Source: Escherichia coli (GTDB lineage Bacteria > Pseudomonadota > Gammaproteobacteria > Enterobacterales > Enterobacteriaceae). Taken from it: a DNA stretch of 64,000 nt. Shown here in pieces: positions 4,201-21,665 of the stretch (position 1 is the first letter of the stretch; the number at the start of each line of letters is the position of its first letter). A program made the translations under genes and the position numbers. The stretch lies in the NCBI RefSeq assembly GCF_003334765.1, contig NZ_QOWT01000002.1; one strand, given 5' to 3'. Under the pieces are notes generated by a model. That model saw only the letters and a program-made list of their open reading frames with translations, searched no databases and was not told where the DNA came from.

Positions 4201-5882
4201 GCCTCGTCCCTCCATGGTAGTCGTAACGTTATTCGGGTGTAACTATCAGGCTCACAGGCGACGCTTATCCCATAGTCATCGCCAAACCGTTCACGTAAAC
4301 GCTTATCCACCAGATTCATCCCCAGCCCACTGGCATTGGTTACCGGTTGATACAAACCGGCATTGTCTTCGATCTCCAGCATTAAATGTTGCCCCTCACG
4401 TCGGGCGCTGATTGCCACTCGCCCTGTATCCAGCAGTTGTGATGTCCCATGTTTAATGGCGTTTTCCACTATCGGTTGCAGGGTAAACGCGGGCAATTGC
4501 TGCTGGGATAATTCTTGCGGAATAGCAATGTTGACCTGCAACCGCGACTGGAAGCGCGCCTTTTCAATTTGCAGATAAGCATTCACATGTTCAATTTCGT
4601 CGGCGAGAGTAACAAACTCCGAAGGCCGCTTTAAGTTTTTGCGGAAAAAAGTGGAAAGATACTGCACCAGCTGGCTGGCCTGTTCGCTGTCGCGACGGAT
4701 CACCGCTTTAATGGTGTTAAGCGCATTAAACAAAAAATGGGGATTCACCTGGGCGTGAAGCAGTTTGATCTCTGACTGGGTGAGCATCGCTTTTTGCCGC
4801 TCATATTGCCCGGCAAGGATCTGCGCCGAAAGCAGTTGCGCAATCCCCTCGCCCAGCGTGCGGTTGATTGAACTGAATAAACGGTTTTTGGCTTCATACA
4901 ATTTGATGGTGCCCATCACCCGCTGATTTTCACCACGCAACGGAATTACCAGCGTCGACCCCAGTTTGCATTGCGGATGCAAAGAGCAACGGTAAGGTAC
5001 TTCGTTGCCATCAGCGTAGACCACTTCACCGGTTTCAATCGCTTTTAAGGTATAAGTCGAAGAAATCGGTTTGCCGGGTAAATGGTGGTCGTCACCAATT
5101 CCGGTAAAGGCTAGCAATTTCTCTCGATCGGTAATCGCGACTGCACCAATATCCAGCTCCTGATACAGCACCTGTGCCACTTTCATGCTGTTCACTTCGT
5201 TAAACCCCTGGCGCAAAATGCCTTCCGTCGAGGCCGCCACTTTCAGCGCAGTGGCAGAAAAAGCTGAAGTGTATTTTTCAAACATCGCGCGTTTATCGAG
5301 CAATATACGCATAAACAGCGCCGCGCCGACGGTATTGGTGACCATCATTGGCGCAGCAATATTACTCACCAGACGTACCGCATCTTCATAAGGTCGGGCG
5401 ATCGCCAGGATGATCAACATTTGCACCATTTCAGCGACGAACGTGACGGCACCGGCGGTAATGGGGTTAAAGACTTTATCAGTGCGCCCGCGACGGATCA
5501 GGATGCTGTGTACCAGGCCGCCGAGCAATCCTTCAACGATGGTTGAGATCATGCAACTTAGCGCGGTCATGCCCCCCATCGAATATCGATGTAAGCCGCC
5601 GGTCAGACCAACCAGCCCACCGACGACCGGACCGCCGAGTAAGCCGCCCATTACCGCGCCTATCGCACGGGTATTGGCAATAGAATCGTCAATGTGCAAC
5701 CCAAACCAGGTGCCCATGATGCAGAAGATGGAAAAGACGATGTAGCAGAGAAATTTATGCGGCAGACGAACCGTGACCTGCATTAACGGTATGAATAATG
5801 GCGTTTTACTCATTAACCACGCAATGACTAAAAAAACGCACATCTGCTGAAGCAGCAGCAACACCAGATTAAAATCGTACAT
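4197..5882 (-). CDS. btsS: LytS-type sensor histidine kinase BtsS (YehU)
   Basis: N-terminal multi-TM domain, GAF and His-kinase regions; start at MYDFNLV. Confidence 0.9.
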
Positions 5883-18601: not shown

Positions 18602-20038
18602 TCAGCGTTTGTAACCCCCGCCCAACGCACCAGTGAGTTGAATGGAGGCATCCAGCCACTGCCCTTGCAATAACAGGCCATTGGCCCGCTCACGCAGCGC
18701 GGGGATTCTGGCTTCGCTGACGCGGGAACCAGCAATGATGCCCGCGTTAAAGCGCGCCTGCGCAAGACCTACCACACGCAAGGCATCGCGCTCAATTTGC
18801 GCCTGATGCTGGTTTTTCTCCGCCAGTGTCTGAACCTGACTGGCTGCCCGCGCCACGTCATTCACCGCTTCAACCACCGCTTTGTTGTAGCTGGCGATAG
18901 ACAAGTTGCTTTCGGCTTTTGCGATATCGAGATTGGCGTTAAGACGACCACTATCGAAAATGGGTAGCGTCAGGCCTGCCGTAACGCCCATTTGCTGCGC
19001 GGAATGACGGAACAGATCGCTTAAGTGCAACGCATCCTGTTGCAGGAAGGCCATCAGGTTGATGTCAGGATAAAATGCCGCTTTTGCCGCATCAATGGTG
19101 CTTAGCGATGACTCAACGTACCAGTGCGCCGCCTGCAAATCTGCCCGCCGGGCCAGTAAGGAGTACCCCAGTTCATCAGGAAGCTGGCTTGCCACTTTCG
19201 GCAACGCGACCGGTTTAAGCTTCAATGACTTTGTCTGGTTATTTGTAAGTGCGCTTAACCGTGCCTCAATAATTTTCATTTTCCCCGCGACATCGTTGAG
19301 CTGCTGCCGGGTTTTGCTGGCATTAATATCGGTTTCCACACCTTCAACTGAAGAAGTAATCCCGTTCTGATATAGCTGGCGATCGGTCGCGATAATGGTG
19401 TTCTGCTCTTTTTCTATTTGCTGCAAGACCGTGTTTAACGCCGCCTGGGTTTGCCACTCCCAGTACAGGCGGGCTACGCTGCCAGCCAGCAATTGGCGGG
19501 TTTGCTCGCGTTCCGCCGCCCGTGCTTTAACCGTACCCAGGCGGGCAGTAACCTCCGCCCGATTCTTTCCCCAGATATCGAGATGCCAGCCCGCCGTTAA
19601 GCCAAAAGTACCGTTGGTGTACCACGGGCCGGTCGTACCTGCGGCCGGATCGTTCAGAGCAAACGGCCCCATTAAGCCTTCTGCCGACATTTTTTGCCGC
19701 TCCATATCCGCCGAAAAGTCGATCTGCGGACCATCCTGAGTGGCAACTGCCTTCGCCTGGGCTTCAGCTAGCTGAATGCGCTGTTCAGCCACCTGCATAT
19801 CCGGTGCGTTCTGTAGTGCATTGTTAATTAAGGAAGTGAGTTGATTATCGTGATACTCCAGCCACCATTGGCTGTCTGGCCAACCATTTTTCAGCGCCGT
19901 GGGTAATGCGGTGTCAACTTGTGCAGCGGGCGTTTGCTGGCTTAACGCCTGGCGGGTTTCATGCATAGGCGCACACCCGGCCAGCATCAGTAACAGCGGA
20001 AAACAGGCGATGGCTGGATAAAAGGAATCACGATTCAT
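18602..20038 (-). CDS. mdtQ: Outer membrane efflux lipoprotein MdtQ (OMF family), apparently intact here
   Basis: Continuous ORF with signal peptide and lipobox LLMLAGC; start at MNRDSFYP. Confidence 0.8.
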   Translation of the reverse strand: MNRDSFYPAIACFPLLLMLAGCAPMHETRQALSQQTPAAQVDTALPTALKNGWPDSQWWLEYHDNQLTSLINNALQNAPDMQVAEQRIQLAEAQAKAVATQDGPQIDFSADMERQKMSAEGLMGPFALNDPAAGTTGPWYTNGTFGLTAGWHLDIWGKNRAEVTARLGTVKARAAEREQTRQLLAGSVARLYWEWQTQAALNTVLQQIEKEQNTIIATDRQLYQNGITSSVEGVETDINASKTRQQLNDVAGKMKIIEARLSALTNNQTKSLKLKPVALPKVASQLPDELGYSLLARRADLQAAHWYVESSLSTIDAAKAAFYPDINLMAFLQQDALHLSDLFRHSAQQMGVTAGLTLPIFDSGRLNANLDIAKAESNLSIASYNKAVVEAVNDVARAASQVQTLAEKNQHQAQIERDALRVVGLAQARFNAGIIAGSRVSEARIPALRERANGLLLQGQWLDASIQLTGALGGGYKR

Positions 20039-20261
20039 GGGGGAATAATCAGGTAAGAAAAGGTGCGCGGAGATTACCGTGTGTTGCGATATATTTTTTA
20101 GTTTCGCGTGGCAATACATCAGTGGCAATAAAACGACATATCCAGAAAAATATACACTAAGTGAATGATATCTTCCGATTTATCTTAATCGTTTATGGAT
20201 AACGGCAAAGGGCTTCGTTTTTTCCTATACTTATTCAGCACTCACAAATAAAGGAACGCCA

Positions 20262-20345
20262 ATGAAAATTATACTCTGGGCTGTATTGATTATTTTCCTG
20301 ATTGGGCTACTGGTGGTGACTGGCGTATTTAAGATGATATTTTAA
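20262..20345 (+). CDS. yohP: Small membrane protein YohP (27 aa)
   Basis: Not in ORF track; read by eye. AAGGA upstream of ATG; single hydrophobic helix. Confidence 0.65.
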   Translation: MKIILWAVLIIFLIGLLVVTGVFKMIF

Positions 20346-20439
20346 AATTAATTAATGTCATCAGGTCCGAAAATAACGAGAATATTTCAGTCTCTCATCC
20401 TGTTGCGCTCCTGTCATGTGCATTGCTTCATATAATCAC

Positions 20440-20640
20440 TGGCGCAAGGAGCGCGCAGGGGGCGGCCAATCGCCGCCGCCCCCTGCACCCCCGGGCTCTG
20501 GCGAACAAAATCGCCGCTGCGCGGTGCCCTCGACTTATCCCTTACGGCTACCGGGTCGGGCGCGAGGTAACATCCCTGTAAAACGCGCCCTCAGCCCACA
20601 TCCATGTGGGCTGCCCCGGCCTTCAGGGAACGCCTCGGCA
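20440..20640. repeat. GC-rich structured intergenic element with strong hairpins; not a canonical REP
   Basis: 12-bp GC stem near 20455-20486 and palindrome near 20593-20614, in AT-rich flanks between yohP and dusC. Confidence 0.45.
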
Positions 20641-20717
20641 ATTTTGACGCCACCAAACAACCGTGCGGCCTATTGATAAAGAGCTAACACATTGTCAAAA
20701 AACATCACTATGGTTTT

Positions 20718-21665
20718 TTAGAGTTTCTCGATATCAATTGCCTGAATAGCCCTTGCAATATCAGGGGAATTATTCAACACCCGAACATGCTGAAATAATT
20801 CCGTTGCTTCATCGTATTCTTTACGCAAATAACTCAACCACTGTTTAATCCGCGCAACGTGATATAACCCGGTATCGCCCTGCTTTTCCAGACGGGTATA
20901 TTTTTGCAGCAAAGCAACCACCTCCGGCCACGGCATTCGCGGTTCGTTATATTTTACCACCCGGCTCAGGTTGGGAATATTGAGCGCCCCGCGACCAATC
21001 ATCACTGCGTCGCAGCCGCTGATCGCCATGCATTGTTGCGCGCTCTGCCAGTCCCAGATTTCACCGTTGGCAATCACCGGAATATTCAGCCGCTGGCGAA
21101 TATCGCCAATCGCCTGCCAGTCAATATGCTCCGCGCGGTAACCCTGCTCTTTCGTCCGCCCATGCACCACCAGCTCCGTAGCGCCAGCCTGTTGAACCGC
21201 ATCGGCGATTTCAAATTTCTTCTCACCGCTGTCCCAGCCCAGACGCACTTTCACGCTGACGGGCAAATGCGCCGGTACAGCTTCACGCATCGCTTTTGCA
21301 CCCTGGTAGATGAGTTCAGGATCTTTGAGTAACGTCGCCCCGCCGCCGCTACCGTTAACCGTTTTCGACGGGCAGCCGCAATTGAGATCCACGCCCCAGG
21401 AACCTAACTCCACCGCACGGGCGGCGTTCTCTGCCAGCCATTGTGGGAACTGACCTAACAACTGCACGCGCACCAGCGTACCAGATGGTGTCCGGCTGGC
21501 GTTTTGTAGCTCAGGGCAAATGCGATGAAAGACTTTTACCGGCAGCAGTTGATCCACCACGCGGACAAACTCGGTGATGCACAGATCGTAGTCGTTAACT
21601 TCGGTCAGCAATTCACGCACCAGAGAGTCAAGCACTCCCTCCATCGGTGCCAGTAACACACGCAT
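20718..21665 (-). CDS. dusC: tRNA-dihydrouridine synthase C
   Basis: Dus-family TIM-barrel sequence; start at [11 protein letters not shown]. Confidence 0.9.

What the first reader, a model, noticed from the sequence alone, without database searches (positions are those of the whole stretch)
20440..20640. GC-rich, highly structured intergenic element between yohP and dusC
Seen in sequence: about 200 bp of GC-rich sequence in AT-rich flanks, with a 12-bp perfect GC stem (about 20455-20486) and a second palindrome (about 20593-20614). It is not a canonical REP. The 86-aa ORF across it is Pro/Arg/Gly-rich and looks non-coding. Inference: a member of another intergenic repeat family or a structured RNA.
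Basis: seen in the sequence. Interest (0 to 1): 0.4.

Follow-up and report, generated by a model that had tools for sequence, protein, structure and literature searches.

The report
Known replication-gap element RRS-dusC
The GC-rich structured stretch between yohP and dusC is the already published E. coli "replication risk sequence" RRS-dusC (Rudd's TRIP1 repeat), a DNA element that makes the replication machinery leave a short single-stranded gap, so the finding is real but not new.

Summary
Window 20437-20660 is 64-72% G+C in 35-42% flanks. It has a perfect 12-bp stem, a 10-bp palindrome and a non-conserved 86-aa ORF.

The window is E. coli K-12 (mdtQ-yohP-dusC-yohJK). The element is RRS-dusC (Pham et al., NAR 2023 and 2024), called TRIP1 by Rudd in 1999. 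It lies 58-281 bp downstream of dusC. The published G-quadruplex motif sits exactly at 20473-20492 on the minus strand, which is the lagging-strand template. A 94.5% identical copy lies near lysO, and a short third copy lies between putP and efeU.

Published experiments show the element blocks polymerases and leaves gaps of up to 2 kb that bind RecA and SSB.

Comparison added points I did not find in the RRS papers I read:
- Several helices covary, with wobble pairs on the G-rich strand.
- Two hairpin loops carry GGA and resemble the TwoAYGGAY RNA motif, but score below Rfam's threshold.
- The G-quadruplex potential is not conserved in Klebsiella-type relatives, whereas the hairpins are.
- The element is flipped relative to its neighbouring genes in 37% (dusC) and at least 19% (lysO) of 5,426 complete E. 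coli genomes.

Verdict: already known, with testable side observations.

The parts
20395..20666 (.). Full repeated unit (TRIP1/RRS family member): the extent of homology to the K-12 lysO copy
   Evidence: BLAST gives 272 bp at 94.5% identity to L003 2519-2789, in inverted orientation. In ST131-type strains the same block is flipped in place between yohP and dusC.
20437..20660 (.). Published RRS-dusC ('281 bp-58 bp downstream of dusC', about 222 bp)
   Evidence: The dusC stop codon begins at 20718. The deletion coordinates come from PMC10592627. BLAST hits in other E. coli genomes cover query positions 8-227 of 20430-20660.
20473..20492 (-). Published G-quadruplex-forming motif GGGGGTGCAGGGGGCGGCGG
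   Evidence: There is one exact match to the reverse complement in the window. The motif sequence is from PMC10592627. G4Hunter maximum is 1.84.
20455..20486 (.). Hairpin H1: 12-bp G+C stem (20455-20466 with 20475-20486) and 8-nt loop. It overlaps the G4 motif.
   Evidence: Stem. As single-stranded DNA it folds at -20.6 kcal/mol on the minus strand and -17.7 on the plus strand. At least 10 different stem sequences in relatives all form 10-12 bp, and the loop GGCGAUUG(A) is kept. ST131 carries double compensatory changes.
20405..20454 (.). Helix H2: arms 20405-20412 GCGCTCCT and 20447-20454 AGGAGCGC
   Evidence: Arms (I5). In Klebsiella-type relatives the helix is replaced by CGUUCAC/GUGAACG at the same spacing of 33-37 nt.
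20592..20613 (-). Hairpin P1, with loop AUGGAU on the minus (G-rich) strand
   Evidence: Palindrome. There are 9 stem variants, of which 7 keep a stem of about 8 bp (two with one internal mismatch) and 2 are shorter. Three pairs have changes on both sides. The hairpin aligns to the first AYGGAY hairpin of Rfam RF01731.
20558..20590 (-). Hairpin P2: GGGCGCG/CGCGCCC stem enclosing ACAGGGAUGU on the minus strand
   Evidence: Folds. Pair 101-121 changes GC to AU in three copies. Stem variants GC/GC, GG/CC and CG/CG are visible in the alignments. The hairpin aligns to the second hairpin of RF01731.
20497..20656 (-). Outer stem enclosing P1 and P2 (core arms 20506-20521 and 20631-20646)
   Evidence: Arms (I1). 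The stem appears in the minimum-energy folds. Compensatory and G.U intermediate variants occur in relatives.
20489..20613 (.). About 125-nt internal module that is absent from 'short' family members. It is bounded by imperfect direct repeats 20489-20506 and 20614-20631.
   Evidence: Direct repeats (D2). Short forms were found at lysO (L002), alx-sstT (L013) and putP-efeU (L028). A query of the module alone gives 2 places in K-12, whereas each arm gives 3.
20262..20345 (+). yohP (27-aa small membrane protein), the left neighbour, convergent with dusC
20718..21665 (-). dusC (tRNA dihydrouridine(16) synthase), the right neighbour. The element lies in its 3' flank.

Best explanation
This is RRS-dusC, one of the two 'replication risk sequences' of E. 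coli K-12, which Rudd called TRIP1.

Shown by others: the element acts as DNA. When the fork unwinds it, the G-rich strand folds into a stable structure. Here that is the minus strand, which is the lagging-strand template. The structure is described as a G-quadruplex at GGGGGTGCAGGGGGCGGCGG, which overlaps a 12-bp hairpin. DNA polymerases stop at it. Lagging-strand synthesis restarts downstream and leaves a gap of up to about 2 kb that is covered by SSB and RecA. At least one RRS is needed unless a 200-kb region is amplified, and losing both changes genome-wide supercoiling.

Inferred by the authors: the transient gaps act as topological relief valves near the borders of the Ter domain.

Added here by comparison: what is conserved across the family is a multi-helix fold of the G-rich strand, made of an outer stem, two GGA-loop hairpins, hairpin H1 and helix H2. 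The G-quadruplex potential itself is not conserved, and neither is placement on the lagging-strand template.
For: Identity:
- The genes match K-12, and the element is 100% identical to K-12 strains.
- The position matches the published deletion coordinates.
- The published G4 motif matches exactly, once, on the minus strand.
- An inverted copy, 94.5% identical, lies upstream of lysO at the published place.
- A third, partial copy exists, as Rudd's name implies.

Strand:
- GC skew of the plus strand is -0.034, negative in 7 of 8 bins. The minus strand is therefore the lagging-strand template, as published.

Mechanism (read, not tested here):
- RecA and SSB peaks at both loci are abolished by deleting the RRS (PMC10287960).
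- Pol I, II and IV stop at the G4 site; ectopic RRS create new peaks; the double deletion is recovered only with an amplification (PMC11194060).
- Single-molecule work shows gaps at essentially every encounter (10.64898/2026.06.16.732529).

Structure:
- Fold z-scores are -5 to -6.7.
- 98.3% of cells are paired. Seven pairs and 20 cells have changes on both sides; 8/500 and 0/500 shuffles reach these values. Slid controls pair only 42-47%.
- Every copy has 5-9 G.U pairs and 0-1 A.C pairs on the G-rich strand.
Against: - The element is flipped relative to its flanking genes in 1,999 of 5,426 complete E. coli genomes at dusC, and in at least 1,048 at lysO. E69 is flipped at both loci in a single genome, and different O157:H7 isolates show each flip. 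In those strains the G-rich strand would be the leading-strand template, and the published work saw no RecA/SSB peak for engineered inversions.
- G4 potential falls to G4Hunter 0.64-1.5 in Klebsiella-type relatives, and some lack even four G2 tracts, while all helices are kept.
- The polymerase stop site coincides with the 12-bp hairpin, so G4 and hairpin are not separated by the data I read.
- The conserved GGA hairpin loops are not explained by a pure 'obstacle' model.
- The topological-valve role is the authors' hypothesis.
Confidence: 0.72

Rival explanations
1. The selected function is at the RNA level. The G-rich strand would be transcribed as part of a UTR or from a local promoter into a structured RNA of about 270 nt. 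Its two adjacent GGA-loop hairpins would bind a CsrA dimer, as predicted for the TwoAYGGAY motif. Replication-gap formation would be a side effect of the same fold in DNA, or a second function.
For: - Every long copy matches Rfam TwoAYGGAY over the full model at 28-31 bits, always on the G-rich strand.
- In Pseudocitrobacter, a second module 70 nt from the RRS passes the gathering score at 49.2 bits.
- The loops read CACAUGGAUGUG and UUACAGGGAUGUUA, close to the CsrA SELEX consensus RUACARGGAUGU (consensus from my own knowledge).
- TwoAYGGAY was predicted to bind CsrA (PMC4333381).
- One relative carries a third GGA hairpin (L097).
- G.U pairs greatly outnumber A.C pairs on the G-rich strand, in flipped copies too.
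- The fold is kept whatever the orientation to replication.
Against: - All RRS copies score below the gathering score of 43, and the Klebsiella-type relatives give no gathering-level hit.
- The repeated unit has no conserved promoter or terminator: homology ends about 20 nt before the outer stem and just after H2, and no terminator-like site is found.
- Orientation relative to neighbouring genes is inconsistent between loci.
- The CsrA CLIP-seq gene table of Potts 2017 lists dusC and ybjE as not bound. This is weak evidence, because reads from repeats may have been discarded.
- G.T wobbles also form in single-stranded DNA.
- The loop AUGGAU was fixed by my metagenome search pattern, so its invariance in that set is not evidence.
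Confidence: 0.12
2. It is mainly a selfish or formerly mobile intergenic repeat. It would spread by an unknown single-strand mechanism, or by gene conversion and recombination of whole intergenic cassettes. Its hairpins would be conserved for that spread, as REP hairpins are for their transposase, and the effect on replication would be incidental.
For: - There are four loci in E. coli, with presence/absence and long/short polymorphism. The alx-sstT locus has a long form in 1,659 of 5,426 genomes and none in K-12.
- Both orientations occur at the same locus.
- A single K. pneumoniae chromosome-size record holds 13 places, and tandem copies occur.
- Up to 10 places occur in some E. coli genomes.
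- Chimeric copies exist between sequence types (r20, r23, r47).
- One copy is 97% identical to K-12's next to a DusC that is only 83% identical (L041).
Against: - I saw no terminal inverted repeats, no target-site duplication and no clean empty site; whole intergenic segments differ between haplotypes.
- No associated transposase was found.
- No copy occurs in the phage collection, and the plasmid records that hold copies are all typed non-mobilizable; the three E. coli ones inspected carry chromosomal genes and several others are chromosome-sized.
- Every one of 5,426 E. coli genomes keeps at least one copy with the hairpin region.
- Published work shows conditional essentiality and effects on topology.
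Confidence: 0.12
3. It is a transcription barrier or mRNA 3'-end stabiliser between the convergent genes yohP and dusC, as proposed for REP/BIME elements.
For: The element lies between convergent genes and carries very stable G+C hairpins on both strands.
Against: - No T-run follows any stem, and the scan finds no terminator-like site.
- Other copies lie between co-directional genes: lysO-aqpZ, putP-efeU and alx-sstT.
- This role does not explain the conserved loops or the multi-helix fold.
Confidence: 0.03
4. The 86-aa Pro/Arg/Gly-rich ORF (20416-20676, + strand) is a gene.
For: The ORF exists.
Against: - It is not conserved. The 94.5% identical lysO copy has at most a 21-aa ORF on that strand.
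- Frames and lengths differ among 40 family representatives, and indels of 1, 26 and 78 nt occur.
- Its composition simply mirrors the G+C-rich repeat.
Confidence: 0.01

Closest known systems
RRS-lysO and RRS-dusC, replication risk sequences of E. coli (Pham et al., NAR 2023, PMC10287960; NAR 2024, PMC11194060)
   Same: This is RRS-dusC itself. The position, the published length of about 222 bp, the G4 motif, the strand, and the inverted partner near lysO all match.
   Different: Nothing differs for the K-12 copy. The homologous unit is longer than the published 222 bp, at 272 bp. The family is also more varied in orientation, copy number and form than the papers describe.
TRIP1 intergenic repeat (Rudd 1999, as cited in PMC11194060)
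   Same: There are three copies in K-12 and the third is partial.
   Different: I could not read Rudd's paper. The location of the third copy (putP-efeU, MG1655 1,080,855-1,080,993) is my own mapping.
TwoAYGGAY RNA motif (Rfam RF01731; Weinberg 2010; predicted CsrA binder, Gardner and Eldai 2015)
   Same: Both have two adjacent hairpins separated by AG, with (A)YGGAY-type loops, inside an outer stem and on one strand. A true above-threshold instance lies next to the RRS in Pseudocitrobacter.
   Different: The RRS scores 28-31 bits against a gathering score of 43. The second loop is AGGGAU, not AYGGAY. The RRS adds a G tract and helices H1 and H2. No transcript is known.
pilE G-quadruplex of Neisseria gonorrhoeae (cited as the only other gap-triggering sequence in PMC10592627)
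   Same: Both are G-rich sequences whose folding during replication or transcription leads to a single-strand gap or nick with a programmed outcome.
   Different: The Neisseria element is a short canonical G3 quadruplex that serves pilin recombination. It is not a multi-helix repeat of about 270 nt.
REP/BIME and BoxC intergenic repeats of enterobacteria
   Same: All are dispersed, intergenic, G+C-rich and palindromic, and they often lie side by side. BoxC-like sequence follows many Klebsiella-type copies, and REP-like sequence flanks the Klebsiella tandem copies.
   Different: The sequences are unrelated. There is no REP-family Rfam hit in the element, and the RRS has no BLAST similarity to the BoxC-containing K-12 alx-sstT spacer. 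The RRS is also much longer and has far fewer copies in E. coli.

Membership tests
RRS (replication risk sequence) | G+C-rich repeat of about 222 bp lying 58-281 bp downstream of dusC in E. coli K-12 | tested here: met
   The dusC stop codon is at 20718, so the element is 20437-20660. G+C is 0.64-0.72.
RRS (replication risk sequence) | Carries the motif GGGGGTGCAGGGGGCGGCGG on one strand only | tested here: met
   One exact match, on the minus strand at 20473-20492.
RRS (replication risk sequence) | The G4 strand is the lagging-strand template | tested here: met
   The plus strand has negative GC skew (-0.034), and the gene order is that of the K-12 left replichore. This is inferred from composition and synteny, not measured.
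RRS (replication risk sequence) | Near-perfect inverted partner upstream of lysO | tested here: met
   272 bp at 94.5% identity on the opposite strand, MG1655 about 915,018-915,288.
RRS (replication risk sequence) | Triggers lagging-strand single-strand gaps that load RecA and SSB, and blocks polymerases | not testable with these tools
   Taken from PMC10287960, PMC11194060 and the 2026 preprint.
TRIP1 (Rudd 1999) | Three copies in K-12, one of them partial | tested here: met
   K-12 strains have 3 places for each arm and 2 for the internal module. The third copy is a short form in putP-efeU.
TwoAYGGAY RNA (RF01731) | Covariance-model score at or above the gathering score of 43 bits | tested here: not met
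   29.7 bits here, 28-31 bits in other copies, and no gathering-level hit in Klebsiella-type relatives.
TwoAYGGAY RNA (RF01731) | Two adjacent hairpins with AYGGAY terminal loops | tested here: inconclusive
   The P1 loop AUGGAU fits. The P2 loop is AGGGAU, AGGGAC or AAGGAC, so GGA is kept but a purine replaces the Y.
CsrA-sequestering sRNA (CsrB/CsrC type) | Transcribed RNA bound by CsrA through GGA hairpin loops | tested here: inconclusive
   Two GGA loops are present. No transcript data were available. The published CLIP-seq gene table lists dusC and ybjE as not bound, but reads from repeats may have been lost.
REP/BIME | REP consensus palindrome; match to REP-derived Rfam models | tested here: not met
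   There is no such hit in 19900-21000 at E-values up to 10. The same search method finds REP-derived naRNA4 hits in locus L022.
BoxC (intrastrand triplex repeat) | Similarity to the purine/pyrimidine-block BoxC sequence | tested here: not met
   The RRS has no BLAST hit to the K-12 alx-sstT spacer, which contains BoxC-like blocks.
Intrinsic terminator | G+C stem followed by a T/U run | tested here: not met
   No terminator-like site on either strand of 20150-20800.

The most novel reading that the evidence does not exclude
The RRS may be the E. coli representative of a widespread enterobacterial family of structured elements of about 270 nt. The family has up to about 13 places per genome in a Klebsiella record. 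Its conserved core would be a covarying multi-helix fold of the G-rich strand with two CsrA-site-like GGA hairpins, related to the orphan TwoAYGGAY motif, rather than the G-quadruplex. That fold is kept whichever way the element faces the replication fork. The selected function would then be independent of lagging-strand placement, and possibly at the RNA level, for example titrating CsrA or another factor that binds hairpin loops. Alternatively, the TwoAYGGAY 'RNAs' could themselves be DNA-level elements.
Probability: 0.2. Interest if true: 0.75.

Novelty: already known. Interest (0 to 1): 0.4.

Why it matters
The element in the window is one of the two sequences in E. coli known to programme post-replication gaps, and it is under active study. 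Re-identifying it from sequence alone shows that the scan works, but adds nothing new about its existence.

The comparative results obtained on the way bear directly on how it works:
- Natural strains carry it in both orientations at high frequency.
- The hairpins are conserved by compensatory change, with wobble pairs on one strand.
- The quadruplex potential is lost in relatives.
- Two loops look like CsrA sites.

Each point gives a cheap, decisive experiment on an open question: which feature of the RRS is the functional one, and must it face the lagging strand?

Tried and rejected
- Copies inside the 64-kb window: none.
- Rfam at E-values up to 10: the only notable hit is the sub-threshold TwoAYGGAY match. 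The AgvB, miRNA and snoRNA hits are far below threshold and were treated as chance.
- Promoter and terminator scan: one promoter-like site outside the element, no more than expected by chance, and no terminator.
- BoxC, RSA and REP identity: checked through the literature and by sequence, and rejected.
- alx-sstT as the third K-12 copy: wrong. K-12 has BoxC-like sequence there. The third copy is in putP-efeU.
- Genome-collection scan with a right-arm pattern: only 16 loci, from Escherichia and Pseudocitrobacter plus small contaminant contigs. The pattern was too strict for other genera.
- Terminal inverted repeats, target duplications or a clean empty site, to test mobility: none seen.
- A small ORF starting at the conserved AGGAGCGCAAC...ATG at the element's end: lengths and sequences are not conserved, and in relatives the 'Shine-Dalgarno' is one arm of helix H2. 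Rejected.
- Transcript evidence: the YohP paper, the Term-seq supplements and the CsrA CLIP-seq tables hold nothing for this spacer.
- Phage collection: no match.
- One regular expression for P2 stem variants returned nothing. P2 variation is therefore taken from the alignments.

Full report
**Observation.**
- Between 20400 and 20649 the G+C fraction is 0.64-0.72, against 0.33-0.42 on both sides.
- The perfect 12-bp stem is 20455-20466 with 20475-20486. The second palindrome is 20592-20601 with 20604-20613.
- The 86-aa ORF is 20416-20676.
- As single strands, 20437-20660 folds far better than dinucleotide-preserving shuffles. With DNA parameters the energies are -70.1 kcal/mol (minus strand, z -6.7) and -65.4 kcal/mol (plus strand, z -5.8). 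With RNA parameters they are -127.2 and -111.0 kcal/mol.
- No other copy lies in the window.

**Identity.**
- The window is E. coli K-12: yohF, mdtQ (frameshifted), yohP, dusC, yohJ, yohK, cdd. It is 100% identical to K-12 strains, and the spacer carries no annotation.
- A literature search led to the 'replication risk sequences' (RRS) of Pham, Wood, Dunbar, Cox and Goodman. [quoted passage not shown] With the dusC stop codon at 20718, this is 20437-20660.
- Their G-quadruplex motif GGGGGTGCAGGGGGCGGCGG occurs exactly once, on the minus strand at 20473-20492.
- The plus strand has negative GC skew, -0.034, negative in 7 of 8 bins. The minus strand is therefore the lagging-strand template, as published.
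- The partner copy upstream of lysO is 94.5% identical over 272 bp (window 20395-20666) and inverted.
- The authors say Rudd called the family TRIP1 in 1999 because of a third, partial copy. I mapped that copy to the putP-efeU spacer, MG1655 1,080,855-1,080,993. It keeps the 12-bp hairpin but has lost the first G5 tract and about 125 nt of internal sequence.
- The finding is therefore already known.

**Published mechanism (read, not tested here).**
- RecA and SSB bound to single-stranded DNA peak on the lagging strand at both RRS and extend about 1.4-2.5 kb. Deleting an RRS removes its peak.
- Pol I, II and IV stop at the G4 site on the G strand, while the C strand has weaker effects at another position. 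RRS moved to other sites create new peaks. Both RRS can be deleted only together with a 200-kb amplification, or if other or inverted RRS are present. Losing both changes psoralen-measured supercoiling.
- Engineered inversions gave no RecA/SSB peak.
- A 2026 preprint reports gaps at essentially every replisome encounter in vitro, and fewer when the G strand is the leading-strand template.
- The 'topological relief valve' role is the authors' hypothesis.

**Anatomy.** Reading the G-rich (minus) strand 5' to 3', the fold consists of:
- An outer stem, with core arms 20631-20646 and 20506-20521.
- Hairpin P1 (20592-20613), with loop AUGGAU.
- Hairpin P2 (20558-20590), enclosing ACAGGGAUGU.
- A G tract.
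- Hairpin H1 (20455-20486).
- Helix H2 (20447-20454 with 20405-20412).

H1 as single-stranded DNA is worth -20.6 kcal/mol on the G strand and -17.7 on the C strand. It overlaps the G4 motif, so the published stop site does not by itself separate quadruplex from hairpin.

**Covariation.**
- I aligned 17 copies from Escherichia species and Pseudocitrobacter. In this alignment 98.3% of cells pair. Seven pairs and 20 cells have changes on both sides; 8/500 and 0/500 shuffles reach these values. Slid controls pair only 42-47%.
- ST131-type copies change H1 from GGCGGC/GCCGCC to GGAGGA/TCCTCC.
- The alx-locus copies change three P1 pairs while keeping the loop.
- A metagenome scan anchored on the two loops gave 120 loci, including about 25 relatives at 74-85% identity. 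Their closest matches in the plasmid collection are Klebsiella and Citrobacter records.
- In these relatives P1 has 9 stem variants, and H1 has at least 10 different stems of 10-12 bp with a conserved GGCGAUUG(A) loop. H2 is entirely replaced (GCGCUCC/GGAGCGC by CGUUCAC/GUGAACG) at the same spacing. The outer stem shows compensatory changes and G.U intermediates.
- Non-Watson-Crick pairs are almost always G.U on the G strand: 5-9 per copy, against 0-1 A.C.
- Caveats: the structure was predicted on that strand, and the P1 loop was fixed by my search pattern.

**What is not conserved.**
- G4Hunter is 1.8-2.8 in E. coli-type copies but 0.64-1.5 in the relatives. Some of them lack even four G2 tracts.
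- The ORF is not conserved.

**Family dynamics in E. coli.**
- There are four loci. At yohP-dusC, the K-12 haplotype is present in 3,317 of 5,426 complete genomes. A haplotype with the element flipped in place is present in 1,999 (sequences).
- At lysO-aqpZ, the K-12 haplotype is in 4,032 genomes and the flipped one in at least 1,048, plus short flipped forms.
- E69 is flipped at both loci in one genome, and different O157:H7 isolates show each flip. E. whittamii and Escherichia sp. E1V33 are flipped at dusC only.
- The flanking genes keep their orientation. In flipped strains the G-rich strand should therefore be the leading-strand template.
- alx-sstT holds a long copy in 1,659 genomes, a short one in some, and none in K-12.
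- Internal deletions of 26, 78 and about 125 nt occur.
- All 5,426 genomes keep at least one copy with the hairpin region.
- A K. pneumoniae record of 5.37 Mb holds 13 places, with tandem copies in one spacer.
- No copy occurs in the phage collection.
- The main texts of the RRS papers I searched contain no occurrence of 'O157' or 'hairpin', and none of them is among the papers that mention TwoAYGGAY.

**Likeness to TwoAYGGAY.**
- Every long copy matches Rfam RF01731 over the whole model at 28-31 bits, always on the G strand. This is below the gathering score of 43.
- In Pseudocitrobacter a second, divergent module next to the RRS scores 49.2 bits and is followed by its own G-rich hairpin.
- TwoAYGGAY was predicted to bind CsrA. 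The two RRS loops resemble the CsrA SELEX consensus, which I cite from my own knowledge.
- Against an RNA role: the repeated unit has no conserved promoter or terminator. Its orientation relative to neighbouring genes is inconsistent. The CLIP-seq gene table of Potts 2017 lists dusC and ybjE as not bound.
- I therefore keep the DNA-level explanation as the best one, and hold the RNA reading and the selfish-repeat reading as rivals.

**Verdict.**
- The feature is real, correctly observed, and correctly guessed to belong to a repeat family. It is the published RRS-dusC, so its novelty is 'already known'.
- The side observations are leads for the field, not part of the finding's novelty. They are the natural flips, the covarying fold, the GGA loops, the non-conserved quadruplex and the multi-copy Klebsiella relatives.

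Noticed in passing
window 20385-20720, compared with L006, L016, L018 and L019 (dusC locus) and L005, L015 and L002 (lysO locus): The whole RRS is flipped in place relative to its flanking genes in many natural strains: 1,999 of 5,426 complete E. coli genomes at dusC and at least 1,048 at lysO. E69 is flipped at both loci in one genome, and different O157:H7 isolates show each flip. The spacer sequence outside the element also differs between the two haplotypes.
   Followed up: yes
L028 2856-2994 (MG1655 1,080,855-1,080,993, putP-efeU spacer): The third K-12 family member is a short form. It keeps the perfect 12-bp hairpin, but the first G5 tract is lost (CCCCCTGCTGTCCCGG) and the 125-nt module is missing. 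Published ssGap-seq reports only two major peaks, so the hairpin alone may not be enough to make a gap.
   Followed up: partly
L026 928-1205 and L022 13937-14200 (alx-sstT spacer); K-12 equivalent L025 2547-2944: A fourth locus carries a long copy in 1,659 of 5,426 E. coli genomes. K-12 instead has BoxC-like CT/GA-block repeats at that spot.
   Followed up: partly
L011 2160-2380 and L024 about 5610-5830 (Pseudocitrobacter): About 70 nt from the RRS, on the opposite strand, lies a divergent module that passes Rfam's threshold for TwoAYGGAY (49.2 bits). It is followed by the hairpin GGGGGGCGCGGTTGCCCCCC, which gives the same order of parts as in the RRS.
   Followed up: partly
L149 2218-3261 (K. 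pneumoniae CP125156.1, pcaC to mechanosensitive-channel spacer): There are two tandem RRS-like copies about 440 bp apart, each flanked by REP-like sequence. The 5.37-Mb record, filed as a plasmid, holds 13 places in all.
   Followed up: partly
L097 (metagenome contig Ga0308165_1000381), representative r35: One Klebsiella-type relative carries an extra inserted hairpin, GCCCCAUGGAUGGGGC, which makes three GGA-loop hairpins.
   Followed up: no
Metagenome loci L044, L045, L052, L091, L098, L124, L135 and L137, just 3' of the element on the G strand: Many divergent copies are followed directly by a BoxC-like sequence (TTCCCCCTCACCCCAxCCCTCTCCCTCAA...GGGAGAGGGAG).
   Followed up: no
L041 (metagenome contig SCPN01000374.1): This RRS copy is 97% identical to K-12's but sits next to a DusC fragment (90 aa aligned) that is only 83% identical to K-12's. 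The element is much more conserved than its neighbour, which could reflect recent transfer or a chimeric assembly.
   Followed up: no
L006, L016, L018 and L019: the dusC-proximal flank of the flipped haplotype: A short ORF (MMKLNKRFIVSDKLRFHY...) starts at the AGGAGCGCAAC-N-ATG at the element's end and runs antisense into the dusC 3' end. Three of the four differences between two species change the amino acid, so it is probably not a gene.
   Followed up: partly
window 18602-20128 (minus strand): mdtQ is annotated as frameshifted (a pseudogene) in K-12 strains. The ORF list shows a 508-aa frame starting at TTG.
   Followed up: no
L004 2403-2596 and L002 1460-1591 (E. coli plasmids pMTY11352_3 and pZ1323HEC0475-2): Two plasmids carry the chromosomal block hcp-lysO-aqpZ-ybjD, including an RRS. 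One copy has a 78-nt internal deletion. The other is a short, flipped form.
   Followed up: partly
L107 303-345 (TARA ocean scaffold): A marine contig has a pair of GGA-loop hairpins (GUCCAGACAUGGAUGUCUGGAC ... UUUUACAGGGAUGUUACC) without the RRS arms. It is probably an ordinary TwoAYGGAY-type instance picked up by the loop pattern.
   Followed up: no
L091 9696-9783 and L048 642-728: C4 antisense RNA (RF01695, a phage P1/P7-type family) lies a few kb from two Klebsiella-type copies. No link to the element was shown.
   Followed up: no
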